From Amoebophrya sp. A120 (taxonomy: Eukaryota; Protista; Dinoflagellata), in the NCBI GenBank assembly GCA_905178155.1, contig CAJINV010000002.1, positions 7,284,743 through 7,348,742 of the forward strand: 64,000 bases of DNA, given 5' to 3'. The translations under genes and the position numbers were made by a program. Positions within the stretch are counted from its first letter, which is position 1, and every line of letters begins with the position of its first letter. Shown piece by piece: positions 6,001-64,000 of the stretch. The notes beneath the pieces are model-generated. The model was not told the origin of the DNA. It ran no database searches and saw only the letters and a list, made by a program, of their open reading frames with translations.

Positions 6001-7552
6001 GATTCGCGCAAAGGAGCAGAAGAAAAAAGACGACGGTTTGCTCGAATTGCTGTTCCAAGACGAGGGCTTTTTCGAATATGTGCTGTCAACAGCCGAGGAG
6101 GAGAATTTCATCGAGTACCGGCGTTTTGACCTCGTGGGCTGGGACCTGATTGTGGAGATCGAGGATCTGGCGACCAAGCAGGTCAAGTGGGTAAGTCTGA
6201 AGGAACTCCTGGTCGCGATCTCTCACGTCGAGGAAAAGTTTATCAGCCAACTGTTGTTGGGATTTGGAACTGACTGCGATGGCGGCCGCTCCTACGGCGG
6301 CTATCCCCCGGAAAGCAATTCTGTGTACGACCAGATCTACTACGGGCTGCACGACGAGGATTTGACTGAGCCTGAAATTTCTCCTTTTCCTGACCCCATG
6401 GCGGCGGCAGAGCGACACGAAATTTTTATCTCTTCGACTGATGCGAAGAAAGAACAAGTGCAGAGTCTTAAAAAAGATGTCGCCCTTCAGAACGGTGGTC
6501 CTGCTCTTGAAGGCAGGAAACATCAAGCCGAAGTAGAGGAGGACGTCACACGAGCGGCTTCTGCGATGTCGGAAGAAGTAGATGAGTCGCCGTTTACTCT
6601 TCACAGCTTGAAAATGCAGAAGAACCTACAGCTTTACGAGTTGCAGAAACGGAAAGACAAGATGCAAGTGCTGAAGTACATGGTGCTGATGGGCGGGAAG
6701 GAAAAATTAGAATTCGTGCTAGAGAAAGTGTTCCACGACCAAAATTTTGGCCAGGAAATTGGAGTTGAAGAGGAGAAAACGGAAGAGACCATCGCGGAGG
6801 CGAATTATACATTGCAAAAATTATGTCTGGGTCTGGAAGGATGCAACTTGTAATGCTATTTTTGGATTCTAAAAAAATCTGTGTTGCGTGACAGGCAATT
6901 GGAGTCCAGTTTTTGCCACATGGAGAGGGCATTTCTCATGCAGGATATGGATATGCATTACGAAGCACTCAGAATATCTGTGATGCTAGGGCATACATCA
7001 CAGACGTCATGGGTCATGTCAGGCGTGCATGACAAATCTTCCAATTTTCCAGACCCAGACATTTTTGCATTTGATACGAATGGTGTCCAGGCGAAACGGG
7101 ACAAAATCGAGTCCTGGCACGTGTACGATAAAGAAGGAAAAATCGCAAAACGGATCATAGCTACACTTTCGGAACTGCCGAATAGAGTTCTTGAGGCGGA
7201 GCAAGACCAACGGATGAATAATTATTACAGTCGTGGTGGGGCCTACTACTCTGGTGCTCGGGCTCGCAACGCTAGAGCAGGTGGGCCTCCTGGCAGAGCA
7301 AGACGAGAAAGATCCGGGGCCTTTGATACCACAGCAGCCTCGGCATCATCTTCGGGTGCGGCGTCCAGTACAAGTCCAAACAGCGCCGCGAACCCTCGTA
7401 TCAACCCCGTCGGGACGTCGTCGGGAAGCACAAGTTTAGTACATTCTTCGTCTGGAAGTGGAAGATTGGAAGCACAACTGCGACAGGAGCGGTACGCCCT
7501 TAGTCGGGAAGCAGAACGGCGGCTGGCGCGCTCTCTGCGTGACGTTGACTGA
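1..7552 (+). CDS. Large low-complexity protein with RING-type zinc finger (5' partial; exons <2-845, ~1260-6805, 7082-7552)
   Basis: Frame is open from the window start. A phase-1 GT-AG intron 846-1259 joins it to the 1130..6853 ORF (acceptor choice uncertain). RING-like pattern CNVCLDD...CGGSFCPCVLKW...PTCPCCR. Removing element 6806-7076 plus one CGAAT joins ...EAN|GVQAKRDK in frame to the stop at 7552. Confidence 0.7.
6806..7076. mobile_element. TIR introner-like element, family A (271 bp, TSD CGAAT)
   Basis: TATACATTGCAAAAATTATGTCTGGGTCTGGAA...TTCCAGACCCAGACATTTTTGCATTTGATA; CGAAT at 6801-6805 and 7077-7081. Confidence 0.93.
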
Positions 7553-9010
7553 GGATGTGTTATCAGACTCTGACCCGCGGTATGGAGGTTGAGGTCGACA
7601 CCGAAATAGCTGCAGTGGAAAAACTCTACGAACTTTCATTATCTTCTGCAGGAGGTGCTTCTGATTGAGATAGTCCGGAAGTGAGGCTCGGGGAATTGTC
7701 TGAGATATATGTAGCTTGGGATGTACTTTTTTTCTGTGCATGTAGTTGCGAGTGCAACGGGAAAAATTTTACGGCAAGAGAAGCCCAACAGAAATACAAA
7801 TAGTGAAGGTCCATCTCTACTGCATCTGGAATTTTCGTGATTTGTTGTTTTTCTTCCCGCTCAGTAACCGCATAGCGTCCCTTTTAGGAGGATCGTAATC
7901 CTTACGGCCTTGCATGTGGATACTGAAATTCTGCATGTTGAGGAACAATGCGGCAATGACCTTTGTCAAAACTCTCGAAACTACAAATGTCATTTATAGT
8001 AGTCTGCCGCGACATCAAATATCTATGCCAGTGCTTTTTTCGCATGCTCTGAATTGGCAATATATAATCGAACTACTCTGATAATTTTCGCTTTCGACAA
8101 ACAATACAACGCGCACTGGTTCTTTCATGTGCGTCCTCAAAAAGATAAAGATGCCTTTCACGAAATAAAACATCACGTTTACAGTTACACACGTCTTTCA
8201 GAAAACTGACTTAAGATAGGCCTGATTTTGATGCACAAAAATTGACGACATTTTGAAGAAATATAAAATCGCATGAGTAAGTGCATTTTCCTGTAGAATA
8301 AAGAGAAAACGAAAAAGACGCAGAACGAAAGTAAGAGATTAGTAAGATCCGCTTGACTTTGCCGTGCCTGACCTCTAATTTTCACATCGAGAATAAAGAT
8401 GAATGTACACTGCAATAAGTGGTTGACGTATAACTTTTTTGGCTTTGAGAAGAATGTAAAGGGCCCCGGAGAAGATGAAGAAAGTCGATTCGACAATAAA
8501 ACTTCGGAAGAAATGATCGAGGTTGGATTCACACAGGAGCTCACTGCTTTTATTTGATCAGAACACGTAGATTGACCGACCTTCTTGGAAAAGAAGACAA
8601 ATGCTCTGCTCGTTGAGGAACTCATGGGCTCTAACCGTGGTCTCACGCTACTCTAGTGTTAGTGCGCGTGTGTAAAAATCTTTAGCACACAACACAAAAA
8701 TTGTGCAGTTTTCTTTGTGATGGTGAAGATGCATCATTAGTGAGCAGTTAGATTTCGTCAGGACGCGCCAGAGGATATAACCTAAGCTCCTTAACTCGAA
8801 TTCACAATTTGAATTTGAATTTGAAAGTGTTGTTTGGTACAGGAGTGAGGCTGAGGCAGGCACTCCCACCACCAGTCGCCCGAGTTCATCCAGTGTCGGC
8901 CTCGGCACGAGGGAGCATTTTGAGTCATAAGCGCACCTCTTCATTGCTAGATCTTCTGAAGTTAAGTACAAAGTAGAAAACCAAAACGTCGCCAGCACCA
9001 GAAACAATAA

Positions 9011-21900: not shown

Positions 21901-24900
21901 TGAACTTATCATGAGTCATAAGTTATGATCACAGCCTTCCAAGACATGCTGCGACAACCCGGCCTGGATATCCTTACGCGACAACCGGGCGGTATGCAAG
22001 CCGTGTATGAAGCCCAGCGAAATGCTCCCTCAACGGCTTACTCCTACACGAACAACACGGGCAACAGTGCGGCTTCAGCCTCCGGGGCGTCGGCGCACCA
22101 CAACTTCAACGCAGCAATGAATGCGGGCACCACACCAGGCACAGCATCCGCGTCCCCGCCGCCCCCTCTGGCGTCGATGGAAGCTTTGTCCCTGCAGAGC
22201 TACCAAAACGAATCGCAGCGGCTGAACGACACTCTGCGGAACTACTACAACTCACAACTGGGAAGGAGCAACTGGGTATCAAAAGGAAAAATCCCCCCTC
22301 CCCACATCGAAAAGGTATGTTTCTGAAAATTTGTGTTGCTGATTTGAGGTCACAAATCACGTCTGTCTTGCAAGAAGACAGGCGCAGAGGCTTCCGCGCC
22401 ATTATGGAAGCGATTTGGCATGCTGTTGCGCCTAGGGGGCACCCGTTTGCAATGCTAAGCAACTAGACCTATACGCCCCTACCTAGGCCGAGGATCTGGC
22501 TGCGATGCCTTACTGCAAGACCAATCCGATTTGTGTACCCAAATCCTGCATCACAGATTTCCATTTCGATATGGGGAGGGGGGATTTTTCCTTTTAATAC
22601 TGGGTCGGGCCGGATGGCAGGGTGCACAGCTACTGGGATTTGCGGCATCCGTACCTGAATGACCACAGTCTGCCGGTGCAAAACAACCCGCTACCAATGC
22701 CTGACATGGTGGGCGGGGAAGGAGGTAGATGAAGACAGCAAGTTTCTTGTTCTTAGAACGCATGCGCAGCACCAAGCAGTATTTTTTGGGATTGGGGCGC
22801 GACACCTTTCGGTGTTGTATTATCCTTTCCGGTTTGGGTATGTTCACATAGTATTTTTAGGTTCAGAACATGCGTTTTGCGCGCTTTCTCTGATCGGGCC
22901 GTCCTACGCCCCACCGCCACATCTTCTTCCCTACGATTCTATGTCCTGTTTCCGCCCCTGTCCGACACCAGCGTCGATAGGGTTTTGAGGGTCTTAGGGT
23001 TTAGGATATTTGATCTTAGAACGCATGCGCAGCTCAACAATCAGACATGAATATGAACAAATTAACTGCCTCTGACGCAGCGGAGTAGGAGTCTTTTATG
23101 CATTAGACGGAAATTCAGCACAACATTTTCAATCAAGGTCCTCCCATCCCGCCTCCTCCGGGTCTGGACAACAGCGGCAACGCGCCGAATCCATTGGTAA
23201 ACGACCATTACTCTGCTTCAGACGACCAGCCCCCACCACCCCCACCACCAGAACCCCCCGCGGCTGGTGCAGCAGCAGTGGGCGCCGCCGGAGACAAGTT
23301 GCCCCTGCAGAGCACAGCGGGCCTCGACAACTCCAACCCCGGTCCGGATGGCGGATCCCTAGGCGCAGCGGGCTTGTTGCAAGCGGTGCCCTGGCAGGGC
23401 GCGGCGCACGGAGCCGAAGTCGCGTTGTGTGTCGCGACTGTGATTGAGGCTTTCGGATACTTGCTGGAGCATGGGGTATTGCTATCATGTCAGGAAGGAT
23501 GTAGCTGCTCATTTTGTTGTTGTAGTAACGCTAGCGCCAGCGGCGAAAATTTATAGTACAACAGGAAAGTGTGTTTACTAATAGTTTCCGTAACGTCCAA
23601 CATCAGGACTCCAACGTCGCCCTGGAACGGCTGCAGCAACGATGCAAATACGCGATGTCTCGGGGCGCGGCAGTCGGCGCTCTGTACCAAGCCTGCGGTC
23701 AATTTGCCTGTCCGCTCGCCACGGTAACGGGCATAGTTGCCGCGGGAGAGGCGATAGCCGGCTACAAAAACGCACAGTACGACCGATCCGCGCACGCAGC
23801 GGTGAGAGGGGGCGCGACTTTTGCGGCTAGTTCAGCAGCGATCACCGGAGCCAAAAGTGTATCAAGCGTTCTCGCATTCAGCGGCGGGGCCGCAGTCGTA
23901 GGACCAGCTGGGGCGGGTATAGATGTTCGTTTCAGAAGGCGCCGCATTGAAAACGATTCACAACAAGTGTGAAAATCTATTACTGTGTACGCGAAAGAAG
24001 TACTTGAAACCAATTTCAAGATACGCATATATGCAACTACATCAACAGCATGGCCAACATAATCTTCAACTTCTTATTTCTAGGTGTCTTGACTGCACTG
24101 GCCTCCGCCTACTGCGCATTTATGATCGGCGGCATGGCGGGAGAAATGGGAAAAGAGTTCCTGGCAACGCGGTATGCACTGCAAAAGTATCGTACTAGTA
24201 TAAATCGCATTACAAATTTTCCCAAGAACAAAAATGCAACTTGTCATGCTATTTCAGGTAGAAACTTGGACTTGTCATGCATATCTGCAATTAGTACGAG
24301 CACGATACTTTTGCACAGGATACGCGGGCAGAAAGAACGAAAGTGGAGAAGGCCTTCAAAACCATTTTTGGCGACGACGTCTCCTTTGAACCAAACACAA
24401 CGCTGAACAAAGCTATGCTAAGGAAAGCGTATTGCTTTTCTTTTTCAAAATCGTTTTTGTTTACCCTTTTGTACGATAGAAGTCACGTGCATGATACTCT
24501 AAGACAGGGCCTCTCGCGCTCCCGGAAAAGTTCATGATAGATGTTGTAATGTAGCGCCGGAGCAGCCTGGCTCTGGATCCTCGTATTGCCTCCAGGCAGG
24601 ATAGTAAAGGTACTATCCACGATGACTCTACAAGCAGATTTTTGTAGTGCAAAAAGAAAAATGAAATCGATGAAAATGAGAGTTAAGCAAAAATTCAAAC
24701 AGCTACTACACCACTAGCCGTGCCTTCCACCCGGACAAGGGCGGCAGTCGCGAGAAGTTTGTCGAGCTGGCGGAAGCTTATCAGATCCTGATCCAGCATC
24801 TGAATAAACAAACGCGCGAGTTGAATGAGCAAACGTGGTTTCACCTGCTCTCTGCCGGCTACTTTGTGAACAACGGGGAGAATAACACCGGCACAAATCC

Positions 24901-27900
24901 CTACAGCCACCAATTCTGCCACGAAAACTTTGACCCCACGAAGCGCGTCAGGCCGTGGTGGCACATAGCGCCGTGCGCGAGATTCTTGTCGACGGTAAAG
25001 CAGCTGGTGGGGAGTAAAGCGAGGGCAGCGATCGAAAGTGCAGCAGCGGGTGGCTCCTGCGGAATGTTGAACACGGTCACTGATTCTGAAGACTACGATC
25101 TACACGGCGGTAAAGATGGTGATGTAAATTCATCTCGAAGACGTCGCAGCTCGTTGCAGAGGAGCAGGCACGACCAGATTCAAACGGCTGGAGCCGCAGT
25201 GTTGGCTGGCTTAAGTTGCAACTACTACATGCGGAACAGGCTGAGCGAAAGAAGTGGGAGTGATTCGGAGGATTTGTACGATGACAACACAGCAGAGAGA
25301 CTCTCGATCGAGGATGGTAAAGTTTGTGAAGATGAGAACAACCCTTCAGCACCAGAACATCAAGGACATCACCCTAAACCCTTGCACAGCAGCAGAAGTT
25401 GCGCCACCAGTACGACAACGCAGATCGCCACAGCTGGTGCAGAACCAGCGGCAGAAGAGGATTCGGCGAGGGTCAGCGAACAGTCTACCGCGGAAGTTAT
25501 CGACGACGGAGCATTTTCGTCGACGAAAAATGGTGGAAACGAGACGGCGAACGAGGACACAACGTGCCCCACGACGTCGACGACCAAGTCCAGTTCCTCG
25601 GACTTGGACACGTGCTCTCACGACGACGACGAAATTATCGGCGACCGAAAATCAGTCTCGTCAACCGGGTCAAGCCTGCGCTCCGCGGAAGACATCCACG
25701 CCATGGTGCGCCCGGAAGCGACGACGGACGACGAGCAGTCTCTATTCGGCAACACATTACTTGCTTCCGGTGCAGTTCCTGCTGCGATTTCCGACAATCT
25801 TCCCGATGTGACAGCGTCTACTCCTGAGGGGGGACGAGCAACAAGGAGCAATAGCAAGAGCACGGCTTTGACCGAAGCGCAACTCCAGGTCGTCCAGGAG
25901 CAACTGAATAATGGGAGGCAAGGACTGCAAGTTGGCGCGGTTTCTTGTTTTAACAGCAACAATTACGAAGATCCGATGAACAATAACAATCACCCGCAAT
26001 CCTGTGCGCCCCAGAGACACGATCCCGCGTTTGTGTCCGAGATGATGCGCGGCGGTGAGAACAGAATACAAACTACCGCAAGTAGGACGAACTGCCTCTT
26101 CTCCTCTGCTTCCCAAGTCGGTCGAACCAGGAGTGCGTCGAGTAAGAGGTCGAAGTACACAAACAAGTTCGGCATCACAATTGGCGGTGTTGACCATGCA
26201 GCAGTCGGCTCTTCTCGCGCCGCTGGCAATGGAGATGGTACAACTGTCGTAGGAGTGCAAATAAATTCATCTTCAAGGAAAAACAAAACGCCCGCCTGGG
26301 CGACCCCTACGAACCGGAGTTCCTATGTACCCAAAATCATGCCGTATCGGTACAGCAGGAGTGCGTCAGGGAGTAAGAGCTCCTCGAAGAGCAACACGCC
26401 AAAGAGCTTCACTGCGCAGCGACAGACGAGCGGCGGTTGTTCAAATTCGACCATAATGGGCGGGGGCAGCACAGAAGCTAGACAGCCTGAAAACCAGAGT
26501 TCTTCCTGGACGTCTTCGCTTTGGAGCAAGTTTTCGTCGCAGTTTGCAGCTACAACGAAGGAAAACACAACACAACATGAATCTGCAGACGTCATCACGA
26601 CCACATTCGACCAATACGCAACGGACAGTACGAAGGCGCCGACAACGGTGTTCAGTTCGAGCGGTAGCTCCTCCAGCAGCAGCTCCAGCTCTGTCAACCG
26701 AGGTGCCTTGGTTTCTCGAGGACAGTACAAGGCCCACCACCGGTCCCGACCCGCGAACAAGTTCGAACACCAGTTCGCCACCTCCACCTCTATGCTCCAC
26801 TACTTCAAGCAGCAGGTGATCGGGCGCGACAGCAGCTCCAGCGGTCGCGACTCCTGGTCCAGTAGCACCAGCAGCCAAGAGAGCTGTACTGCGCATCAAA
26901 ACCGAAAACGCGCGGATGGCCAGGCCTTCGCTCCTGGGGGCCCCTCGGAATTCGACCCACCGTCGTCCTCTGCTTCATCCTCTTCCAGCAGCTCGAGTTC
27001 TTGCGCGTCAAACAGCTCCAATGCGGAAGAGATGCAGCAGTTGACTGGGAATGAGGAAACGGAGATCGACGAACACGAGCTGTTCACTCCCAGAACCGCC
27101 GCGAGGTTCCGGGGCCGAGTGCGGGAGAAGGCAAATCAACTTGGCGGAAACAAGAAACAGAAAACCGTGGGAGCGATGGTGGGAAACGTGGTCCGTTTCA
27201 CGCCGCACTGCGGCAGGGTATTAAGTGACACCTCGACCTCCTCTACGGAAAGTTGCGCTGCAGGAGGAGAGCATCGAAGTACCAAGGACGCCGGGGTACT
27301 AAAGAATGCTGATTGTTCAGGAGCAGGAGGACGGGGAATATTAATGCCGAGTGGTCGCGCTGCAGCGTACGGAGAGGGCGACCCCGCAGACGACGAAGCT
27401 GAGGACGAGGCGGGCAAGATGCAAAGCAAACCGCCCACGGTGGAGAGCCTGACGCCGCGCATCAAGAACATTTCGGAGTCGCGAAGACAGCAGCTGCAGG
27501 AAATCATCAAGGCAGGGCAAAGCTTGAAGGAACTGAAGAAACGAAATCATGGAAACGAAACTTCCAGCACTGCGCTGAAAGGAGGCTATAGTACTCTTGG
27601 TACGACCATGACTGGAGCCTCTCCCACCTCCGGAAGAGGCGGCGCAGCGGGTCGTGATAGTTCTGAAATGGGGGTCATGCACCAGCATGGAAATACAAGT
27701 AGCGCTAATGGTAATGCCACAACACCTCATATGCCGCGCACGAAGACTCTGAGCACAGACGGTGATCGGTCCTGCAGGAACAAGAACAGCATTTCGCTTT
27801 CGGGTCTCCAGATGACACCGAAATCGTCTATGAAAGAGTCCGACTCGGTGAGTTGCCATCATTCGAACAGTTCGTCGCACCAATATATCAAATGTAAAAA

Positions 27901-39722: not shown

Positions 39723-40410
39723 AGCACTGCTTTAGAAGCCGCGGGGCGACGAGTGACAGAAAATTTTTGACTTCATCTATTTGTTTCCTTGACGCCTTTG
39801 TCACAAGAAATTTCAATTTGTGCATTGCGTCCGCGGCGCATGCACTGTCCACTTTTTTAGATTCGTCCTGAGATAAGATAGAATTCGGTTTCTGGCTATG
39901 TCATTTGAATCGGTCTCTCCTCGTCCTTCCATGGCGCCGTCCGTTCAACACGCATTTACCTTCGGTTTCTGCTAGACCGGCGTCTGCTGCATTATTGCCG
40001 TGAACCTGCTGCAGAAAGTTCGGTAGTGCTCGTGCCTGTGTATGTATGTGCTGAATAAAGAGCTCGTCCTCGGTTTTCATCGTGCAGCACCAACATCTGA
40101 AAGGTCATGTCTTAGTCACTATCGTGCAACTGCTGTAAATACTTCCGCGAATTCGTTTTTCGTTCATGTCGTTTGCGTCCCGTCCCCTAGTCCACTAGTG
40201 GTGGTACGTCGTCTCAAGTCTTCAAACACTTCTAACACCCGCTATTCATAAATTTAACAGGACATTTGTAGGCTCCTATCTTCAAATCAAATACCACTAC
40301 ACATTAGCTATTTCCCCTTCCTCCAACATTGTCACCAGCCCGAAGTCGAACCCGGCACGATTTTTTCTCTTCTTCAGTAAAACGTCTATGACTATCTGTA
40401 AACCAGCACC

Positions 40411-47521: not shown

Positions 47522-48283
47522 GACACAGTGCAGATCTCAGCACGAACAGGTAGCGCGGCCGCGGCTCCATAATGGAAATTACCAAATATTTAAATGATGA
47601 AAATTACACTTACAACACACGACATAAACCAAAAAGTGAATGTTTCGCATACGAACTAAACACGTTGCTGGGTTGCACGTCCTCAAGCATAGCATTCTGT
47701 CTCCGTGCTCGCTGGCTAGTATTCGTTTCTTGAGAATAAAGGAAAACCAAAGAGACATATCTGGTCGCAACTTGACAACTTTTTTTCACGCACTAAAATT
47801 TAGAGGGCGAGGGCGGGATGTGGCCGCCCGCGCCCCCTCCGATGTGCTACAATCTGGGAGCGGACACGTTAGTTGGTTCCGAGACCAGCACTCGACGTTT
47901 TCGTCATTTCGATGCCCTGTCCCTGGTTGTCATCGTCACCGAGTGAGTGAGTTTAGCGGGTTGTTTGACGGCGAGGTTTTCTGAGGATTCCAAACAGATG
48001 AAGCACCAGTAAGCGAGTCCAAGAGGGTACGGTGCGGCCGAAGAGGAAGATCAATCTGTTGTCGCGAATCGTGCTTAGAAGAATACGCGGCCTGCGCACG
48101 AGCACGTCCTACGAAGTCGTACGATCAGGATCATGCCTGCTATGGCACCAGCTATGAGTAGAAGACACGAATAAAACATATCAAGAGCAGGGCTGTAGTA
48201 GACGACCCTTTGGATTTAGAGAATACAGAAAATTTGTTGTTCACGATTCTATCACCAAGTTTATTGTTTCATCTTTCTCAAAC

Positions 48284-51200
48284 ATGCGTCGCTCCGTCTC
48301 CCACGGCCGGCCCATTTCTCCGGATAAGGCTACCCAAGTCCACCAGGGCCGGTCGGGTTGGAGAAAAGTGGCGAAAACGCCGGAAGACCTGCTCTACGAA
48401 GCACGGATACACTACCTGAAGGAGAGGATTGACGAGGGGCTGCTGCACTACAGTTCTGCGGCGACACAGGAGCGGGGATGGAAAATTTTGCACGCGCTGG
48501 CGGAGGACCATTTGACCGGTACAGAAGAGAAAATGATCCCTTTGCAGCTTGTTAGTGTCTTCCTCCTCGTGTAATTTTTTGCCATGCTAGAAGCTTGCCA
48601 TCATGAATTGTCTGGTTTTTTTATCATGATTATGTGAGAAGCTTGCCAATGAAATAACAAGGTGACACGGTGTGGACGTTTCTGGAGCTGGTTTTCCTGA
48701 GTCGTGAGCAACAGAAGAAGAAGCTCGCGAAACTGCAACTTCGGGAGAAGTACGAGCGGCACCTGGCCGCGTTGGACGAGATCCACATCCGGAAGTATCA
48801 AATGCAAAAATGTCTGGGTCTGGAAGAATGCAAGACTTGTCATGCATATTTCTCCTGACCCATGAAGCCTGTAATGCATGACCTAGCATCGCAGACTTTT
48901 AAAGGGCTTCCTGATGCACCTTCCGCATGAGAAATGCCCTGTCCGTTTAGCACAAATTGCACCCCTCTTGCTGGTCATGCAATGCAATTTTTTTTTTTTT
49001 TAGAGTCCAAAAACAGCATGACAAGTTGCAATCTTCCAGACCCAGACACTTTTGCACTTGATAGAAAGGAGTTGAAAATCACGGAAAAGCGGTCCTTAAG
49101 CCTGCTCTGGCTCTTCCCGGTAATTTGCGAGCAATGCTGCTACGAGCTGATTGGAGGCATCACCGACGTCGCGAACCCGATGGGTTTGCAGCTGATGGAG
49201 TCCTCGGGGAAGATCATGTCGAAGCCCAACACGCTCGCGATTTCCAGTAAACCAGACTCCTTTCACAGGTTACTGTTGGACGGATTCTTAACCGACCCGG
49301 ACGGGACCCTTGCTGCGCGAATTTTGGTCGAGGGCTACGTGATTCTCAATCGGGTGTGGACCACGCAGGGGAAGCCGCCGATTCTGTCCGGGCCCTGGAA
49401 GCGCAGTCAGAGGAACGTTGGCACGTTTGAACACGTACAGCTGATCGACCAGAAAAACAGCTGGAATTTGCAGATCTACAACCGGTTCGTGAAACCCATT
49501 TTCCAAGCCATTGCCATGCAGACGCAGGAGCTGCTGAGCGGCAACTGCGAAATAGATTTCGGCGGCGGCAATTTCTCAAACAGCCGATCAAATAGCTCTG
49601 CGAATCTCCTGCAAAGTAGTAGGCCGAAGACAAGTAGCGTCTATCGGTCGAGTCGAAACAACTCGACGACGTCGTTACAACAAAACAATCGCACGAGACC
49701 GTCCTCCCGAATGTCGCCTATACGAATGCGGAATCTCCCCTCGCCACGCGGCGAAGAGTTCAACGACACGAGAACACCGAAAAGGCTGCATCATGAGCAA
49801 TTGGAACTCCAGTGCTGGAACGGATCCTTGACGTTGATCTGCCTCACTCGGGAACTACTTTTCCAGTACAAGGCGGACGTCACAAGGACGCAACAACTCC
49901 GGGACTTGCTGATGGAGCACGCCAGCGCGGTGTTTGAGAATTTGACAATAGTTTCCGACGCGTTCAAGTGTTCTATCGCGAAAGGCACGATTTTGGACGA
50001 AGCGGAGCGACTCGGTGTGCCCGTCGACAACGCGATGCTGGACCCGAGCGACCGGAAGGCCTTGCTGGTGAACGACATCGCGAACTCCAGCCACTTTCTC
50101 GCACAGGAGAACGGTCGTGGTCGTGGGAATAAGAACAACAATGCCCCCTCTCCGCCGAAGTACCTGGGAAAGCGGAATTCCATCGGCCGCGCGCAGACCG
50201 CGAAACGGGAGAAACAGTGGAGGGAAAAGATGCACGCGATTGCGCAGCTGGGGTTTTTGCACTGCGTCGGACAGTACCTGGCGGTCTACCTCTGGCCCCG
50301 GCGGTTTTTGCTGCAGGTCGCGGCGATTTGCGTGCATTTGCTCCGGAACGCGCACAAAGTGTCTTCTACGAGGGATCTGTGCGTCGTCGCCTGTGTTTGC
50401 TTGACGCACATCGGGTCCTTCCTGCTGCTGCAAGCCGCGACGCCACCGGAGGAGGAGAAGGAAGAGGAAGACTCTGACGATGATGGTACAACTTCTACCC
50501 AGCCTGGTTCTAGGAATAGAAAATCGTCACGGCAGAAAGCCCAAATGGCGGGGGAGCAGCTGGCGCAGAACGGATTTGCCGACTACGATCAGAACGATCC
50601 GCGGTTGTTGAGAACGGACTTGGAGAACGCCGACGGCACCACCTGTCCCTCGAGTTACTGGGACGTCGTCAACCCAAATTGCCCACGAGATGAAGATGAG
50701 TACGACGATGATGAAAATGCTGAACAGTATGAAAGCTTCGATATTAACGATGAAAACAGAAACAACGTTGAAACGCATCTCATGAACGACGACGCCTTTG
50801 ACGACATTGACCCCTACCAGCCGCCAAAACCGCCAGTGAGAAAGAAGAAGAAAAAACCGAAGAAGAAACAATCGAAACCCAAGCAATTGGAAAACGAGGA
50901 CGCAACGCTATTGCTCCAGCTCGCGCCGGTGATTCAGTCCTTGATGAAGCCGGAAACTAACCCGGAACTGTTCCAGCACATGCGCGGGGAGGCGGATGGT
51001 AGACTCCGGAAGTGCGTGGACAGTTGCTACGGCGCTTGGAAGCTGTTGGAGCAGGAGAGGCAGAAGAGAAGGGCGCTGCTGCGGAAGAAGTTTTCGGCGG
51101 ATTATGATTCCAGAGGTACTTCTAGCGTTGACCACAATAAACCGGATCCAAAACTGCTGAAGGACGACGACCCCGACCACCCGGATTTTCCCCCGCAACC

Positions 51201-53445
51201 CGCGACCTCCGGGAACGCGAATGTATCGAAGGAACGGAACAGCAGCGGGCTCTTCGCTTTCACGAAGAACGGAAATTCGCCGATGAACCAGCGGAAAAAG
51301 CACGATCGAACGCGGTCGGACAGATTTGAAAAGAAGATGACCAATGAGAACTACTCGCTCCGAACCGCCATGGACAACCTGATCGCGGAATGCGAGCCAG
51401 TAAACCCGGTTCCGGACATGCTCGGCGATCCAGATTTGCTGGTGACGGATCAAAATGGACTGGATGAGGACAACGACTTCCAAGCGACGCAGCGACGACC
51501 GCTGCCGGCGACAGCGTCGAGCAGTCTGTTCCTGGACGCAGAGGGACGGATAATGAATGACGAGGAGCTACTTCAGGACGAAACGGAAGCGCAGCAAGTT
51601 GCGAGCGGTATTCGGAACGTCCGCACGCGTCCCACCGTGTTGCAGCAAGCAACTGCGCAGGGCGATTTCATGGCAGCAGGAGGCGGAAACAACTTCTCTC
51701 GCGGTGGAACAAGTCGCCGCGCTAGTGAAATAAACGCACCGGCACCTCCTCCGCTGGGGACGACGACGAACAGCGCGTTTCGGAACAGCACAGCGACCAG
51801 GCGCCACAGCGATTTGTCCAACAGCGCGAGTGCGAAAACGTTACGGTTCGCAGACGAGAATGAGAATGATGACGCTGTGGATATTTTTCAGCTCCCCAGC
51901 TCCACGCCCAATTCCAATGCGACGATCGCGCCGATTCCCAACCGCGGCCCGGTCTCCTCCTACGCGCAGAAGAAGCAGATGCTGTTGGACTATCAAATGT
52001 AAAAGTGTCTGGGTCTGGAAGAATGCAACTAGTCATGCTAAATCTGAAGCATGCAAAAATCTGTGTTGCATGATTACCAAAAGTCGTCCAGTTTTGACAA
52101 AGTCGGGAGGGAGTTTCTCATGCAGGATAGGCATGAGAGGGATCGCGCACAATTTGTCATGCTAGGTCCTGCATTCCAGACCTCATGGGTCACGGAAAAG
52201 CTGCATGACAAATCTCGCATTCTTGCAGACCCAGACATTTTTGCATTTGATATGGACCCGCTTGACCCGATTCAAGACTCCCCGAGAAGCCCCGGCAGGA
52301 GGAAGAAACTGAACGAGGAGCTCTTCAAGCGAAACAAACTCGAGGGCACCCCGATCCCAAACCCGCCGGAGGAGTTAGAGAATAGTGAATCGCGGAGACA
52401 AATCCGGCCACTGTCCCCGCAACTGGTGAAGTCAAATACGCAAAGTGCGCTGAAGGTGAAACAGGACGGCAGCTACATGTCGCCGCAGCAGCTCGGGAAA
52501 AAGAAGAGACTGGATGAGAAAGACAGTAAGAACATCGCGGATTTCAAAACGCCGTTTGAAAAAGTGCAAGACTGCATCCGCGGGGGGGTCTTGGATGAAG
52601 CGTTTTTGCTTGTCCTGCAGTACGGCCACGAGGAAATGCTGTTTCAGTTTTTGGAAGAGCTGGACCTGACGGAGAAGCTCTTGGAAAATGACAACGGCTT
52701 TCCCAACGACGACGATGTGAATCCCAACCCGAACAACGCTGGCTCTTCCGGATTCAACCGGAATTCCAGCGAAGTGCTCCAAGGATTGAGCATAATGGAC
52801 CCGTTGCAAACCGACGCGGACGAGGAGGAGTTTTCCACGAGGAATAACTACAGGACAAGAAGCAAAACGGGGTCGTTCGTCACGGGGTTGTCTGCGAAGG
52901 AATGGAATAAGCAAAGCAGGACCAACGCAGCAAAGCAAAAAACCGACACAACCGAGGACGAAAACGGCATCAACACGAAAGTGCGGGAAAAGAAATTCTA
53001 CCCCCTCTCGGAGAACCAGAAGCGGCAAATCGGCAACATGCTCGCGCAGATCCTGCGGCGCGAAGTAAACAAGTTTTGCGCCAAGCTGAGCCGCACCCGG
53101 TCTGCGGGAAGTTTGATGTCGAACAATAGCGGCAACGCGTCGCGAACAAGACACGGGTTCCGCACGACGAAATTAGACAACACGTTTGCGGTGACAAAAC
53201 AAGACTTTGAAACCAGGAAGAAGCTCGATTTGTCCTGTCGCTTTCTCCCCAAGTACTTGGCGTTGTCTGGAATGAATACTGCGAAAACTATACCGACCTA
53301 CGCGACGGACGGGCCGATCATCACGTCGGCGCAGGACACATCAACGCTCCAGCTGGTCCGGGAGACGTGCTTGAAAGGCTGCGAGATCGTGGACTTGCGG
53401 GATACGTTGGGCGTCTTGTATCGGAGCATTACGCCACACTACTGA
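48284..53445 (+). CDS. TORTIFOLIA1/SPIRAL2-like (HEAT-type) microtubule-associated protein, ~1,492 aa; exons 48284-48518, 48662-48795, 49069-51990, 52258-53445
   Basis: One GT-AG intron plus two family A elements give a single 4479-nt frame. N-terminal LKERIDEGLLHYSSAATQERGWKILHALAEDHLTGDTVWTFLEL and C-terminal FEKVQDCIRGGVLDEAFLLVLQYGHEEMLFQFL resemble the two conserved TOR1/SPR2 blocks (recognised by eye). Confidence 0.6.
48796..49063. mobile_element. TIR introner-like element, family A (268 bp, TSD GGAAG/GAAAG)
   Basis: TATCAAATGCAAAAATGTCTGGGTCTGGAAGA...TCTTCCAGACCCAGACACTTTTGCACTTGATA. Removal gives IHIRK|ELKIT. Confidence 0.93.
51991..52252. mobile_element. TIR introner-like element, family A (262 bp, TSD TGGAC)
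   Basis: TATCAAATGTAAAAGTGTCTGGGTCTGGAAGA...CAGACCCAGACATTTTTGCATTTGATA; TGGAC at 51986-51990 and 52253-52257. Confidence 0.95.
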
Positions 53446-55350: not shown

Positions 55351-55992
55351 AATTCAAATTAATTAAGTGCGAAATCATATATGTCGCTTAAAGTTTCTAG
55401 ATACGTAAATGCGAATTCCAGAGGCAGAGCCTCGTGAAATTCAAGAGTCCTCAATCAAATCCCATTCCTCGCGATCGTAACTTACCTTCCCATTCCCGTT
55501 GTATTTGCCAGCCTTCTATCTTCTTCTATCTACTTCCCAAAAACCACACGCGATCAGTAATTAGCAGAGTAAGTATCTATGAATTTGATACCGCAAGAAC
55601 ATCATATGACGAGCAAACGACCCAAATAGTAACGCAACAGAACCAAAGAAGTTTTTGACGCTGCCTAATAAGAAAGGAAACTACAAGAAACAAAGATCAT
55701 CAACCGCCTGGTATTACTCACCTTTGTACTTCTCAGCAAAGGAGGACGAAGCTGACGACCACTCGACACAACTAGCCTTCTCACCTGACTCTGTTGACAC
55801 AGGCAGCTCCATCAAAGATGCGAATCATGCGAAGAATTCGCAGTAAGTCTGAGTTTGTGTTCTCAACACTCTCAGACTCGCGTAGTTCCGCTCCGCGCAT
55901 TCCTTCCTGTGCAGGTCGAACATGATGAAGTCTTACTGCCGCGGGGGCATTTGTCGTGCGGGTGGTTGTCGTGATAGTACTCTCAAATAAGC

Positions 55993-58393: not shown

Positions 58394-59438
58394 GTCTCGC
58401 GGGTTATCATGTAAATGATAAAAATTGGGATTATAGTAGTTGTGTATGTGTTGGTGTTGCCGGTGAAAGACGCAAAAAGAAAAACCAAAAAAGGCTGGGA
58501 AATAAAAGCCTAAGCCAGCGCTGTCCATAATGGCGAAATACGATTTTTGAAAACCAAGAACAGAGTGCAAAACCTCTTCGTCTGATCATTTGCACAAGAG
58601 CTTCTAATTCTATGCCTATCGAGTGCATGACAGCGGACTCGGAAACGTTGATCCTATTCGTGTTCGCAAATTTTTTTCTGCTTGTTCTATAAAATAACTG
58701 ATGATCTTCAAAAGAATCTGATCCGCGTTTCTTGTTCTCTGTATTGCAGGAGTAGACTGTATGCATGCATAATTACATCTGTTCCTTCCACCATGTGCCA
58801 TCGAAGCCACTGCTTCATCTACAAGAACTTCTTGCCCAGAAAGATCCCCTGGTTCCTGTTCGGATCTTTTCTTTTTTCGCCCATCGAAATCACGATCGTT
58901 CTCTGTTCGCATGACACAGATCTTGTGCACCGGAGCGAAGTTTCAAATGATCATGAAAAAACGAACCCGTTTGAAGAAAATCAGATGAAGTGAGAGGTCC
59001 TGTGGGTGGTAAGATCTATCATAAACCGATGGCTGCCGATGGTAAAATCATATCTATCATGAGCGCAGCTTGACCTCGTGCCTACGAAGGCACAACAAAT
59101 AAAGATATTGTAATGGTCTTTTCATGGTCATCTCCGTCTGCGACTACGACAACTGTATACATGTCCTTGTTATTCTTATTTCGCTTCGTTCAGGTTTTTC
59201 TTTTTGCTGATGTGGTTGAGTGCGCCGCCACCTTCCACCGATTTCATCTTTACCGCTAGAGTTTTTCTCTTTTTGTTGTAAATCACTTTAGTGCAGCGAT
59301 TATATCGCATTTTTTTGATATTGCGAAATAGAACCAAGTACGTTGAAATTAATCGTACAAAACTTGTTTATGTTTACGTACTTTTTTGTATAGCGACGCA
59401 ATTTTTCTAGCAAATTTTCACTTTTTTCCAAGCGAACC

Positions 59439-62400
59439 ATGAACGGCGCACACATGGAGGCTGCTCATCCGGCTGTTGGCCCCCCTGGTCAACCGGGAAC
59501 TACGCCCGGTGTGCCACCAGGTCAGCATCGGATTGAACACCACACCAGTATGACGTTCAAAAAAACAAACGAAGACCCCAGCAGGTACCATTTCCACCTT
59601 CTGATGAAAAAGAACCTCGACATTCACTGGAAAAACGGGAAATGGAAGCAGTTTCTGTGCATTTTCATCATGGTCCTGTGGTTCGGCGGGGCTGATCGAT
59701 TTTTCGAGATTCTCCGGACCAAAAAGTATGACACAGTAAAGCCCGGCGCGTTAAATGGATTCGATATTATACTTGATGAGGACACGCCTCTTGACGCGAA
59801 CTACGTTCATGTCAGCCGTTTCGCGGATCCTAACACACCCATCGCTGGCGAGAAGTTTCCGGGCTTGACCATGTTCTTTGCCTGCATCGGCGCACTGATA
59901 GGCATGTACACGGCAGTGTTCCTCCCGCTCACTTTTGTCTACCGGGTTTTCGGGTCGCAGATTTTCGGGGAGAAGGAAACCAAGTTGATGGAGATGCAGT
60001 TTGTCTACGGACTCAGCAAGGGCAAATATTGGCTCGCCAACCTGGTCTTCTTCACGATCGTGCTCGGGAGCACGTTTCTGATCGCGCACAATTTTCTGTT
60101 CACCATCTTTCTGACCATCGGCACGCAGGGCAATCTGCCGAAGTTTTGGACCAGCGGGGAACTCCTCTCTCTCGGGTACTTTCTACAGCCGCTCTTTCCG
60201 GTCGTCGCGGCGCTGCTGCTCGGCTCCACGCTCGCGGTCTCCTTCGAGAAGAAGGAGGCCTTCGAGGGGCTGTTGAACTCGCTCTCGGGCCTCGGCGCCC
60301 TGGCCTGCCTGGGTTTGTGGGCGTTGATGGAACTGTTTTTCCCCACGCGGACCTCCTTTTTCGCCACCGCCGCGAAGGGTTTGTTCTACGGCGATGAGGC
60401 CAGTGACGCGCCGACCGACTGTCCGGACTACAGTCTGAGCTCCCTGAATCTGCTCGGGTCCCTCCTCCTCGGCATCGTGATCCCGGGATTCAGTTACGCC
60501 CGGATTCTCCTGCGGGGCCTGCAGCTCAAAGTCGTGCTCATTCTGCTCAAGACTGTCTACCCTGACGGTATTCCTGACACGGGGTACACGAACTACGCCT
60601 TCTGGGGGTGCGCGGTCCGCAACGACCCGAGACCGCCCTTCTATCCGTTGGCGCGGGTGTTCAAGCGCTTCGATCCGGTGAACAATCCCGCGTCTCAGCG
60701 AGTGCTTTTGACGAGGGAACATGAGCAGTGGCTCATCGACGAAATGAACGAGAACAGCGGAGCAACTTTCCTGGCGAAGACGCTGCCGTTTGCCGACTAC
60801 GTGCTGCCGATTCTTTTGGAATACACGGGTTTGATCCTCAACGTAATCTTCTGGGCCTTGATGCTGTATTGGCGCGAGACCGCGCGGCACAAAGCGGAAG
60901 AGGGAGAAGTCGCCGCTGCAGTTTCTTTGGCCGCTCAGCAGGGTGGAAGACCATATGGCCCTTCGGCCACGATGACATCAAGCAAGCCGGCGTTGCAGTT
61001 GATGCAACTGACGAAGACGTTCAAGCGGGGCAACTTTGGGCAACAGACGATCACCGCAAACCGCGGTCTCACCTTCGACATTCACCGCGGTGAAATTTTC
61101 GGGCTGCTCGGCCACAACGGCGCGGGCAAAACGACCTTGATCTCGCAGCTTACCGGCATGATTCCCTGTACGAGCGGAAACGCCTTCGTGAACGGGTACA
61201 GCATCCGGAACAGCGAGGACATCACGCAAGTCCGGCAAAGCATTGCTATCAAATGCAAATATGTCTGGGTCTGGAAACTTGTAATGTTGAATTGGCGAGA
61301 CTGAAATACTTTCCAATGCAGCCAAGCATGACAAGTTTGCAGAGCACTTCCTCATGCGCGGTCCGCATGAGAGACACCAGGGCTTTTGTATTACAAAAAG
61401 GGGCATCCTCTTGCTAGTAGTCATGCAATACAGATTTTACAGGAGTGTAGGACTAGCATTACAAGTTCCATAGTAGTTCCAGACCCAGACATATTTGCAA
61501 TGCATAATCGCCTTATGCCCGCAATACAACCCGATGTGGGAGGTCTACACGCTGCAGCAGCACGTGGAATTTTTCGCGCGCCTGCGCGGAATCTCTGATG
61601 CGGACATTGAGCCGACCATCGACAAGTACGCGGCGTTGCTCGGCTTGAGCGACAAACTGGACACACTGTGCGCCCAGCTGTCCGGTGGCCAGAAGCGGCG
61701 GCTCTGGGTGATGTGTGCGCTACTAGGGCATGCGCCGGTGGTAATTCTGGACGAGCCAACCTCCGGCATGGACCCCCAGGCGCGGCGGGACTTCTGGGTG
61801 CTGCTGAAGAAGATTGCGAAGGAGGAGGGGCGGTGTATCCTGTTCTCGACCCATTACCTCGAGGAGGCCGATCTCCTCGCGGACCGCAAGGCGATTCTCG
61901 CCGCGGGAAAACTGGCGGCGATCGGGACCAGCCAGCAGCTGAAGCGCGAGTTTGGCAACGGATTCTGGATCCAGGCCGTCGTCGATAAAGCAAAGTGCCA
62001 TGACCGAACTTTGGCGAGGAAGATTCTAGGCGAAGACCTGAAAAAGGTCGTGGAGAACTGCTTGACTGAGGACCACCTCCAAGTCCAAACGGGTTCTTTG
62101 GAGGGTCGACGTGGGGTTGAAGCCGTGAAGCACAGCCTTGGTACACGACCAACCGTCGAGACCAAGAATCCAAAGGTGTCCGATTTCTACCTGGCGTACA
62201 ACATTTCCTGGGCGCAAATGCACAAGATGGGCGACATTTTGGACCAGTTAAACCAGCACGTGCAACAGTCGCCGCACTTGCGAGATCTCGGCATCGAATT
62301 TTCCGTCGAGCAGACCACACTCGAGGAAGTTTTCAGCTTGGCGGGCGAAAAGGCGGAGCTTGAGGTGTTGAAGCTGGAAGCAGCCGCGGAGGAAAAAACA

Positions 62401-64000
62401 GGAAGTACATCTTCAGAACAAGTTCACAAATCTGTGGAGGAGCAGCTTGAAGCGAAGAAGTTACAGAAGAAGAAGGACGAGTTTCTTTCCAAACAGCCCC
62501 TGCGGAAGCGAACCTTGGCGTTTTTCCAGCAAGTCGCGGCGATCTACCGCTTTCGCGTCTGCGGAGAGCTGTGGAAAAAGTTCGGCAGCTATATGAGCAT
62601 CGGGATTTTTCTTACCGCGTTTCTCGTGTTATCCTATCAGGTGAAACCCGAGGTCGATAAGGACCTGCCCGGCATGTGGGTCAGCATTTTCAGCCTCTGG
62701 CTTTCCTCTATCATGGTCGCGACGCTCCCCTTCCAGTTGTTCGGAATGAATTTGACCCGGAACATTTACGACAAGGAGAACAAGGAGGGCCTGCTATCCT
62801 GAGTAAAAACGTCCCCACACCAGAGTTGTCATGCAAATCTGCATGGCAAAAGAGTTTGTCATGCGGAGCGCCATGAGAGGCATTTTATAGTCGTGCTTTG
62901 GAATTTGTGATGCTACAATCGGCATGATATACTGGATCTGTGATGCTGCTGAGCTACCTAATCAGGATTACACTACGAGGAGAAACCTGTCATGCCAAAC
63001 GACCAAAGCTGGGCGATTTGTCTAGCAGATTCCCCATCTTGACTCTGGTGTGGGGACGTTTTTACAAATGATACCTGCTCCGGCACCTCACCATGCACGG
63101 GATGAAGCGGAGTGCGTTCCATTTCGGGTCGTTTCTCTCCTTCTTCACCTTTCCAACGGGCTTCGCCTATGCAATACAAATTTCCCGTACATGTACAAAA
63201 TGCATCACAAATTTCGCCAACTTGGAGCATGCCACTTGTCATGCTGAATAGCCTTCAGCGCTAGTTTTGTCATGCGGAGCCAGCATTCGTACGTGTACGG
63301 GAAATTTACTGTGAATATCGCCTGGGTCCTGTACACGATCTTTCTGATGATGATCTTCTCCTCCGTCTTCGCATCCTCGACCGCGATCGGGACGGTGTTC
63401 GTGTTCCTGTTCGCCTTCGTCGTGCCCGTCACGAACATCCTGCTCCCGATGTTCCTGGGCCTCACCTGCAGCAACGCCCTGTGGGTGATCTACATCGTGG
63501 TCAGCTACGCGGTGGCTTTCCTGCCACAGATGATCTACGGCATCGTGCGAGGGACGAGTAACCAGGAGATGTGGAACCCCACTTTTGATTGTAGAATGAC
63601 GGAAATGTTTCTCTCCAGCCACGCCCAGGCGTATGACACCAAAAAGAGCGTAATACGTAACGGAATTTTCATTTTGCATAAAGTATTGCATATGCATCAG
63701 AATTCATTGCACAAATTTGTATTTACTCAACATGCATGGTAGAGAAAATTAAAATTTTAACTTGATCTTGCTATGCATGACTACAATGCTTCAAAACTGT
63801 TTAACGTTAGCGCTTCTTTTTTTGGTTGATAAGGCGGCTGGCTTGGATATGCTGTTCTCGTTCGGCGTGCCTGATTGGTTCAACGCGATCTGGTTTGTCC
63901 TTGGCCTGTTCTTCCCCCCGGTCGCCGCATCAAGGGCGTTTACCGCACTGTACAAACTTTGGACGTATGACAAAGCGCAGGCCGTAATCCACTTCGCGAC
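59439..64000 (+). CDS. ABC transporter, subfamily A (3' partial); exons 59439-61246, 61512-62794, 63079-63167, 63323-63631, 63837->64000
   Basis: Multi-TM domain; GEIFGLLGHNGAGKTT (Walker A), CPQ (Q-loop), LSGGQKRRL, VILDEPTSGMDP, STHYLEEAD, TTLEEVF. A second TM domain follows. Interrupted by four TIR elements. Confidence 0.95.
61247..61506. mobile_element. TIR introner-like element, family A (260 bp, TSD ATTGC/ATCGC)
   Basis: TATCAAATGCAAATATGTCTGGGTCTGGAA...TTCCAGACCCAGACATATTTGCAATGCATA. Removal restores VRQSIALCPQ. Confidence 0.95.
62795..63073. mobile_element. TIR introner-like element, family D (279 bp, TSD CCTGC)
   Basis: TATCCTGAGTAAAAACGTCCCCACACCAGAGT...ACTCTGGTGTGGGGACGTTTTTACAAATGATA; CCTGC at 62790-62794 and 63074-63078. 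Confidence 0.93.
63168..63317. mobile_element. TIR introner-like element, family E (150 bp, TSD TCGCC)
   Basis: TATGCAATACAAATTTCCCGTACATGTAC...GTACGTGTACGGGAAATTTACTGTGAATA; TCGCC at 63163-63167 and 63318-63322. Confidence 0.93.
63632..63831. mobile_element. TIR introner-like element, family F (200 bp, TSD AGGCG, degenerate TIR)
   Basis: TATGACACCAAAAAGAGCG...CGCTTCTTTTTTTGGTTGATA; AGGCG at 63627-63631 and 63832-63836. Removal gives HAQA|AGLDMLFSF. Confidence 0.85.

What the first reader, a model, noticed from the sequence alone, without database searches (positions are those of the whole stretch)
6801..63836. System of 14 transposon-like non-canonical introns (TAT...ATA ends, TIRs, 5-bp TSD) that must be excised precisely from coding exons
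Seen: 14 inserts at 6806-7076, 22277-22599, 24173-24322, 27886-28147, 28218-28366, 30066-30327, 41437-41585, 41663-41928, 48796-49063, 51991-52252, 61247-61506, 62795-63073, 63168-63317 and 63632-63831. Each starts TAT, ends ATA, has ~20-35-bp TIRs and a 5-bp flanking duplication of variable sequence. All lie in coding exons of 5 genes, and I found none in intergenic DNA. Each introduces a stop or frameshift, and deleting element plus one TSD restores the frame in 14/14 cases. No register within the TSD gives GT/GC-AG ends. Known: introner elements with inverted and short direct repeats forming non-canonical introns have been described in Amoebophrya; to my knowledge their removal mechanism is unresolved. 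Inference: the host has a non-standard excision route, either structure-guided RNA splicing or DNA-level excision like ciliate IESs, that makes exonic MITE insertions harmless.
Basis: partly seen in the sequence, partly recalled or inferred. Interest (0 to 1): 0.92.

Follow-up and report, generated by a model that had tools for sequence, protein, structure and literature searches.

The report
Known Amoebophrya introners, cut register narrowed
These 14 small transposon-like inserts match the already published non-GT-AG introns of the plankton parasite Amoebophrya A120; eight of them are missing, together with one copy of a 5-base flanking repeat, from assembled spliced transcripts, and the cut likely falls one base before the insert and four bases after it, by a machine that is still unidentified (likely a relaxed spliceosome).

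Summary
The 14 inserts are real (TAT...ATA ends, hairpin-forming inverted repeats, 5-nt direct repeats; 11 perfect, 3 with one mismatch). They match the introner elements of Amoebophrya A120 published in 2021 (IR = TAT, 7 loose bases, AAA), and the nearest named homologs of the host ABC gene are A120 proteins. Contigs that also splice GT-AG introns lack element+5 nt at 8 of 10 sites examined; contigs of one DNA-like run enter the elements at 11 of 11 displayed ends. So removal is at RNA level; IES-like DNA excision is unlikely. Corrections: six genes rather than five; one element (63632) has a GC-AG register; 'coding exons only' is not shown beyond this window. Added here: mismatched repeats bracket the cut (RNA: after repeat base 3 or 4; a conserved Rab5 alanine favours 4), giving N.UAU...AUA.NNNN; removal works in both orientations with no G or AG bias. 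A relaxed spliceosome is slightly favoured over a nuclease/ligase; neither is shown. No transposase found. This scan already reported the same system, and this register, on other DNA of this genome. Verdict: already known; mechanism open.

The parts
6806..7076 (.). Element, ~260-270-nt GTCTGGGTCTG family; repeat CGAAT at 6801-6805 and 7077-7081
   Evidence: ORF fusion 1064-7549; not covered by a read lay
22277..22599 (.). Element, 323 nt, C/G-tract TIR family; repeat CTGGG
   Evidence: read-through; one low-depth contig stops at 22270 where a precise joint would be reported, its other side not displayed
24173..24322 (.). Element, 150-nt family; repeat CGCGG; in predicted first exon of the DnaJ-domain gene
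   Evidence: no RNA joint displayed (tables cut)
27886..28147 (.). Element, 262 nt; repeat CAATA
   Evidence: skipped with 5 nt in X3 and X4 contigs, by record arithmetic
28218..28366 (.). Element, 149 nt; repeat GACCA
   Evidence: skipped with 5 nt in X3 and X4 contigs, by record arithmetic
30066..30327 (.). Element, 262 nt, opposite orientation to 27886; repeat ACGAA
   Evidence: contiguous joint 30059>30327 in X3 and X4; orientation
41437..41585 (.). Element, 149 nt; repeat TCGAA
   Evidence: skipped with 5 nt in the 4557-nt X4 contig, by record arithmetic
41663..41928 (.). Element, 266 nt; repeat AAGCA / AAGCG; RNA keeps the right-hand base 5
   Evidence: joint 41657>41929 in X4, X5; both copies confirmed in DNA-like run X1
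48796..49063 (.). Element, 268 nt; repeat GGAAG / GAAAG; RNA keeps the left-hand base 2
   Evidence: joint 48792>49066 in X4, X5; loose end in X6
51991..52252 (.). Element, 262 nt, opposite orientation to 48796; repeat TGGAC
   Evidence: joint 51985>52253 in X4, X5, X6
61247..61506 (.). Element, 260 nt, splits the ABC ATPase domain; repeat ATTGC / ATCGC; RNA keeps the left-hand base 3
   Evidence: joint 61244>61510 in X3; Pfam PF00005 positions 3-60 and 61-137 on either side
62795..63073 (.). Element, 279 nt; repeat CCTGC
63168..63317 (.). Element, 150 nt; repeat TCGCC
63632..63831 (.). Decayed element, 200 nt; repeat AGGCG; the only one with a possible GC-AG register; lacks the internal motif
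1064..7552 (+). Host frame 1 (2070 codons after removal; no Pfam family)
22011..22732 (+). Last exon region of host gene 2 (carries 22277)
   Evidence: predicted
24050..31196 (+). Host gene 3, DnaJ-domain protein; four elements plus a predicted GT-AG intron 24429-24702
40402..44763 (+). Host gene 4, coiled-coil-like; two elements and GT-AG intron 43941-44121 spliced in the same contig; poly(A) end at 45186
48197..53445 (+). Host gene 5; two elements and GT-AG intron 48519-48661 spliced in the same contig
59394..64000 (+). Host gene 6, ABCA-type transporter, runs off the window; four elements

Best explanation
The 14 inserts are copies of the published Amoebophrya A120 introner elements, which are missing from spliced transcript contigs together with one 5-base repeat, likely cut at one fixed register (one base before the UAU start, four bases after the AUA end) by what is likely a relaxed spliceosome guided by the element's own ends. 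Steps: (1) inferred: a DDE/integrase-type transposase supplied in trans binds the TIRs (and perhaps the internal GCATGACAA motif) and inserts the element in either orientation with a 5-bp duplication; (2) shown: the element stays in the DNA of the run examined and breaks the frame; (3) predicted: the transcript folds end to end into a long hairpin with a loosened tip; (4) shown at 8 sites: element plus five bases is absent from spliced contigs, restoring the original exon; (5) inferred from four mismatched repeats: intron = N.UAU...AUA.NNNN; (6) inferred: the element's invariant first bases supply U at +2 and A at +3 as in the host's own GUA donors, while +1 and the 3' dinucleotide are free and the 3' cut is measured from the hairpin end.
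For: Published definition matches: A120 IR motifs start TAT, seven looser bases, then >=3 A; 3-5-nt direct repeats; Fig. S19 legend shows 5-bp repeats; 14 of 14 here fit. Nearest named homologs of the host ABC protein are A120 (53%, 46%) and A25 (43%) proteins, and a deposited protein equals the element+5 model over 644 of 644 residues. RNA level: contigs that skip elements also skip GT-AG introns and one ends in poly(A); DNA-like contigs enter the elements at 11 of 11 displayed ends. Register: RNA keeps right base 5 (41663), left base 2 (48796), left base 3 (61247); in locus L035 a Rab5-like gene needs left base 4 to encode the Ala kept in P0122-P0125 and in the Rab5 chains shown; 9 of 9 'predominant' A120 non-canonical types in Table S4 have T second. 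The four GT-AG introns checked begin GTA. The paper reports 83 of 89 spliceosome proteins and U2, U4, U5, U6 in A120; a relaxed spliceosome is reported for Fritillaria. In 190 further elements, element+5 fits the flanking frames in 42 of 43, 60 of 64 and 84 of 100 cases at three cut-offs.
Against: Nothing here shows which machine cuts. Points that fit a spliceosome poorly: both orientations are used (19 same, 21 opposite, 6 unclear of 46) and opposite-orientation copies are removed from one contig; no excess of G at +1 (25 vs 23.2 expected of 79) or of AG at the 3' end (12 vs 8.0 phase-matched, p=0.10); no 5'/3' asymmetry in the TIR and no fixed branch-point word (34 of 79 vs 38 of 79 mirrored); the donor would lie inside a strong stem (z -2.5 to -11.7); U1 was not found in A120. 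The register assumes one rule for all sites, rests on four sites, three from majority contigs of one study and one from conservation in another assembly; Table S4 depends on how an aligner places ambiguous junctions. X3-X6 are only guessed to be RNA by the tool, and no usable raw reads were obtained (X9: 5 partial reads).
Confidence: 0.55

Rival explanations
1. Same elements, same RNA-level removal and register, but by a spliceosome-independent structure-reading endonuclease plus RNA ligase (euglenid-like outcome), which cuts 1 nt before and 4 nt after the hairpin.
For: Orientation-free removal, no G/AG or branch-point bias, symmetric ends; strong end-to-end hairpins in 14 of 14 with invariant tip bases and a poorly paired position 7 (3 of 14; 84 of 232); U1 undetected; euglenid TIR/TSD introns leave as circles, not lariats (review PMC11282704 section 6).
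Against: No such enzyme is identified and none could be searched (no genome held); the N-U-A-U start fits a relaxed GU-A donor; a near-complete spliceosome exists and splices GT-AG introns in the same transcripts; invariant tip bases are equally explained by transposase needs.
Confidence: 0.33
2. Developmental DNA-level excision (ciliate IES-like) in the transcribing nucleus, so that transcripts never contain the elements.
For: Anatomy is that of a DNA transposon; contigs cannot tell RNA removal from removal in a life stage whose DNA was not examined; only one DNA-like run was laid and its joint table was cut.
Against: In X1 unique flanks run 18-29 nt into the elements at 11 of 11 displayed ends at flat depth about 44-56, with no fork at the repeat; RNA-like runs also hold element-plus-flank contigs (table 7); the kept bases switch from left to right copy at one point relative to transcription.
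Confidence: 0.05
3. The joints are reverse-transcriptase template-switch artefacts across hairpins flanked by direct repeats, and the genes are broken or use other splice sites.
For: Hairpin plus direct repeat is the anatomy known (own knowledge, recalled) to favour template switching; all RNA-like contigs come from one study.
Against: The skipped form is the main contig at 8 of 8 resolved sites; retention would break conserved genes such as the ABC ATPase domain and Rab5; frames on both flanks stay in register with element+5 in 42 of 43 clear cases.
Confidence: 0.03
4. Removal uses a variable register anywhere inside the repeat, so both repeat copies are coding.
For: All 3 mismatches in the window are synonymous; the paper's Fig. 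3 legend calls the sites variable relative to the hairpin.
Against: In oriented loci 8 of 14 mismatches change the amino acid, including Ala/Asp at a conserved Rab5 position; each RNA contig shows one form.
Confidence: 0.08

Closest known systems
Introner elements (IEs) of Amoebophrya sp. A120 (Farhat et al. 2021, PMC7789003; also Gozashti et al. 2025, PMC12130899)
   Same: IR starting TAT + 7 loose bases + AAA, short direct repeats at the exon/intron border, hairpin, repeated families, size around 150-320 nt, no internal transposase, RNA-supported non-GT-AG junctions, same host by protein homology.
   Different: No difference in kind. The paper leaves the border position inside the repeat unknown (Fig. 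3 legend); the register, the orientation independence and the internal motif are not in the text I read (its figures S19-S25 were not visible).
Nonconventional introns of euglenids (via review PMC11282704, section 6)
   Same: TIRs pair the intron ends, TSD-like repeats at junctions, no GT-AG, probable MITE origin, mechanism unknown.
   Different: Euglenid CAG/CTG at +4..6 / -8..-6 is absent here (+4..6 would be T, C/G, A/C); unrelated lineage; circles not tested here.
Non-canonical MITE-derived introns of Fritillaria borealis (review PMC11282704; PMC13326754 abstract)
   Same: TIR and TSD, non-GT-AG ends, coexist with canonical introns.
   Different: There AG-AC/AG-AT dominate and U1 is present with divergent U2AF paralogs; here +1 and the 3' dinucleotide look free and U1 was not detected.
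IS3EU/GingerRoot and IS481EU DNA transposons (PMC10045372, passages)
   Same: TA..TA (IS3EU/GingerRoot) or TNT..AYA (IS481EU of Trichomonas) termini, short TIRs; integrase-related DDE enzymes; PMC12130899 reports integrase-like ORFs inside TIR introners of A120.
   Different: TSD here is 5 bp, not 6 bp (IS3EU/GingerRoot) nor about 4, 15 or 25 bp (IS481EU); no transposase found.
Ciliate internal eliminated sequences (recalled, not read)
   Same: Transposon-derived inserts in coding exons removed precisely with one copy of a flanking repeat.
   Different: IESs are removed from DNA; these are present in the DNA run examined and absent from spliced contigs.

Membership tests
Amoebophrya A120 introner elements | IR motif TAT + 7 less-conserved nt + at least three A | tested here: met
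   14 of 14 at both ends against the definition read
Amoebophrya A120 introner elements | 3-5-nt direct repeat at the exon/intron border | tested here: met
   5 nt in 14 of 14; exact 5-nt repeat in 191 of 299 TIR pairs in loci, exact 6 or 7 nt in none
Amoebophrya A120 introner elements | Repeated families, hairpin structure, no internal transposase | tested here: met
   13 of 14 have a 74-95% identical copy in loci L001-L154
Amoebophrya A120 introner elements | Removed from transcripts at non-GT-AG junctions | tested here: met
   8 of 10 elements in the laid stretches; the other 2 not displayed
Amoebophrya A120 introner elements | Host is Amoebophrya of the A120 lineage | tested here: met
   nearest named homologs; a locus carrying the same families encodes a named A120 Rab
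Canonical U2 introns | GT/GC...AG ends | tested here: not met
   13 of 14 have no such register; 8 of 93 in window plus loci have one in any register
Spliceosomal introns (relaxed) | Lariat with branch adenosine; dependence on U2/U6 | not testable with these tools
   no raw reads mapped; no fixed YTRAY word
IS3EU/GingerRoot | TA..TA termini | tested here: met
IS3EU/GingerRoot | 6-bp TSD | tested here: not met
   5 bp
IS3EU/GingerRoot or IS481EU | Cognate DDE transposase in an autonomous copy | tested here: inconclusive
   none in 28 window ORF pieces or in loci; whole genome not held
IS481EU | TSD of about 4, 15 or 25 bp | tested here: not met
   5 bp
Euglenid nonconventional introns | CAG at +4..6 paired with CTG at -8..-6 | tested here: not met
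   end logos; definition
Euglenid nonconventional introns | Released as full-length circles | not testable with these tools
   needs RNase R or circular RNA sequencing
Ciliate IES | Absent from the DNA of the expressed nucleus | tested here: inconclusive
   present with no fork in one DNA-like run; other life stages and rare variants not examined

The most novel reading that the evidence does not exclude
A120 removes tens of thousands of exonic transposon copies with a machine that reads only a hairpin and its invariant UAU/AUA tip, in either orientation, cutting 1 nt before and 4 nt after it with no U1, branch point or splice dinucleotide: a second, spliceosome-independent mRNA splicing system in an alveolate nucleus, convergent with euglenids.
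Probability: 0.3. Interest if true: 0.8.

Novelty: already known. Interest (0 to 1): 0.3.

Why it matters
The system itself has been in print since 2021, so the finding is a rediscovery. It still touches an open question: how a nucleus removes introns without GT-AG or a detected U1. A fixed N.UAU...AUA.NNNN register with orientation-free removal gives exact substrate ends for lariat, circle and end-chemistry tests, lets A120 gene models be placed correctly, and explains how a transposon makes its exonic insertions erasable at any target sequence.

Tried and rejected
Whole genome not held, so no genome-wide transposase, snRNA or ligase search. Viral contigs: 0 matches to the TIR pattern. Rfam: 0 matches in the window. 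No autonomous copy in 154 loci: longest single elements 457-631 nt with no frame above 118 codons; two longer pairs were composites. The idea that both repeat copies are under coding constraint (3 of 3 synonymous in the window) failed in loci: 8 of 14 non-synonymous. An apparent AG excess at repeat positions 3-4 (12 vs 5.9, p=0.015) fell to p=0.10 with phase-matched expectation. A phase-0 excess under the proposed register in loci (42/20/17) was not seen in the window (3/2/9) and is not used. Two other position-4 mismatch sites were uninformative: L037 found no homolog, L038 found only a gene call from its own contig. A first ORF-length control and an over-fitted coding model did not discriminate and were replaced. 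Literature: searches listed no paper that fixes the register or the mechanism; Roy 2023, Henriet 2019 and Guminska 2021 were not read, and figures S19-S25 of PMC7789003 could not be seen and may already show the register.
Full report
Observation. All 14 inserts are at the stated coordinates, start TAT, end ATA and are flanked by a 5-nt direct repeat, perfect in 11 and with one mismatch in 3. A scan with no motif assumption recovered 12 of 14 at exact ends with TIR scores 19-24 of 25; five block shuffles reached at most 18. Pairing the end motifs returns exactly these 14 and blastn shows no other copy in the window. All fold end to end (z -2.5 to -11.7); TIR positions 1-3 and 11-14 pair in 14 of 14, position 7 in 3 of 14. 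Each element breaks the frame, and removal with five bases gives fused frames of 2070, 1942, 1058, 1415 and 1232 codons over 12 junctions; 22277 and 24173 read through in shorter exons. Two details need correction: 63632 has a GC-AG register, and there are six predicted host genes.

Identity. The ABC gene's nearest named homologs are Amoebophrya A120 (53%, 46%) and A25 (43%) proteins. A deposited protein of this very gene equals the element+5 model over 644 of 644 residues, so four of these junctions are already annotated as introns; homologs align without gaps across three of the four and poorly across the last. Farhat et al. 2021 (PMC7789003; I read the abstract, passages, the last third of Results, section 16, and supplement legends and Tables S4, S5, S7; no figures) define A120 introner elements by an inverted repeat starting TAT, seven looser bases, then at least three A, with 3-5-nt direct repeats, and count 29,850 of them. 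That is this anatomy. The paper leaves the border position within the repeat unknown and reports no U1 and no transposase in A120.

RNA or DNA. Eleven runs were listed, none of the holders on record as RNA; six were laid. X1 has flat depth of about 44-56 over unique sequence, and its contigs run 18-29 nt into the elements at 11 of 11 displayed ends, with no fork at the repeat. It may be the source of the assembly, covers one sample, and contigs drop rare variants. X3-X6 (two samples, one study, guessed RNA) behave as spliced RNA: they skip GT-AG introns 43941-44121 and 48519-48661 in the same contigs as the elements, and one ends in poly(A). Of 10 elements in the laid stretches, 8 are absent with exactly five extra bases: 41663, 48796, 51991, 61247 as listed joints, 30066 as adjoining pieces, and 27886, 28218, 41437 by record arithmetic. 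22277 has a contig stopping at the expected base; 24173 was not displayed. Raw RNA run X9 gave 5 partial reads.

Register. Let k be the number of left-repeat bases kept. At 41663 the RNA has the right-hand base 5 (k at most 4); at 48796 the left-hand base 2; at 61247 the left-hand base 3 (k at least 3). In locus L035 a Rab5-like gene has a mismatch at base 4: left gives Ala, right gives Asp; the A120, AT5, A25 and one Logan protein all have Ala and the Rab5 chains shown mostly align there (3 of 4 alignments). One rule that fits all four is k=4, intron N.TAT...ATA.NNNN. In line with this, 9 of 9 predominant A120 non-canonical types in Table S4 have T as second base, though that depends on aligner placement. 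This is an inference from four sites under the assumption of one rule.

Wider sample. One metagenome scan (14 of 64 parts read) gave 154 loci with the same families; they carry a named A120 gene, so they are not independent evidence of wider spread. They hold 232 distinct elements passing a >=4/5 repeat filter, 202 with perfect repeats; before that filter 191 of 299 TIR pairs had an exact 5-nt repeat, most of the rest being cross-pairings of neighbours. Where both flanks score as coding, element+5 fits in 42 of 43, 60 of 64, 84 of 100 (of 190 with long enough flanks); 90 of 190 did not score as coding on both sides, 4 of 190 had low-GC flanks on both sides. Among 79 oriented elements the main family lies 19 one way, 21 the other, 6 unclear; there is no G excess at +1, no significant AG excess at the 3' end, no 5'/3' asymmetry and no fixed branch-point word.

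Mechanism. Insertion by a DDE enzyme in trans is inferred from TIRs, fixed 5-bp repeats and both orientations; the termini resemble IS3EU/GingerRoot and IS481EU but the repeat length does not match (PMC10045372 passages), and PMC12130899 (passages) reports integrase-like frames in A120 TIR introners. No transposase was found in the window or loci. For removal I put a relaxed spliceosome first (0.55): k=4 places U at +2 and A at +3 as in the host's GTA donors, the spliceosome is near complete, and there is precedent in Fritillaria (PMC11282704 section 6; PMC13326754 abstract). A structure-reading nuclease plus ligase is close behind (0.33) because removal is orientation-free and shows no dinucleotide or branch-point bias. 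DNA excision (0.05), variable register (0.08) and template-switch artefact (0.03) are disfavoured. Other Amoebophrya strains use mostly GT-AG and one has U1 (PMC12005148 passages); gene and GC bias of introner insertion is general (PMC9860276 passages).

Novelty. The class, its ends and its RNA support are published. Searches listed no paper fixing the register or the mechanism, but unseen supplementary figures and unread papers may. This scan has already reported the same system, and the same one-base-before-UAU cut, on other pieces of this genome (unreviewed notes, not counted as support; my register bracket was recorded before that look-up). Verdict: real, already known, mechanism open; interest 0.3.

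Noticed in passing
window 12887-15235: A 2.35-kb GT-AG intron in a MYG1-family gene (removal restores the frame) holds two arrays of a ~42-nt unit with a palindromic CACATGTG core (13896-14304, 14877-15109) and a 42-57-nt segment repeated four times.
   Followed up: partly
window 22780-23020: Intergenic repeat with raised depth in the DNA-like run (136-480 vs about 45), a 90% match over 114 nt in L034, and telomere-like TTTAGGG words.
   Followed up: partly
window 57574-57941: Two 78%-identical ~170-nt direct copies around a near-perfect 79-nt palindrome (57693-57771).
   Followed up: no
window 56489-56541 and 58107-58159: A 53-nt duplication that starts with a GT donor; run X6 shows GT-AG joints 56488>58107/58169 and 56208>56398, while X4 and X5 hold 54173-56518 unspliced.
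   Followed up: no
L072 561-826, L073 3329-3608, L033 5386-5713: Normal-sized TIR elements with no recognisable 5-nt repeat (0 of 5 matches); whether and how they are removed is unexplained.
   Followed up: no
elements in window and loci, TIR position 7: Position 7 is mostly unpaired (3 of 14; 84 of 232) and position 4 half paired, between the invariant TAT and AAA blocks, so the hairpin tip carries a recurrent internal loop.
   Followed up: partly
table 7 (e.g. 48796, 61247, 61507): RNA-like runs also hold contigs in which element ends are joined to flanks from other places: retained elements, unspliced RNA or DNA carry-over.
   Followed up: no
whole window: All long genes lie on the + strand with positive AT skew, fitting the unidirectional gene clusters reported for Amoebophrya.
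   Followed up: no
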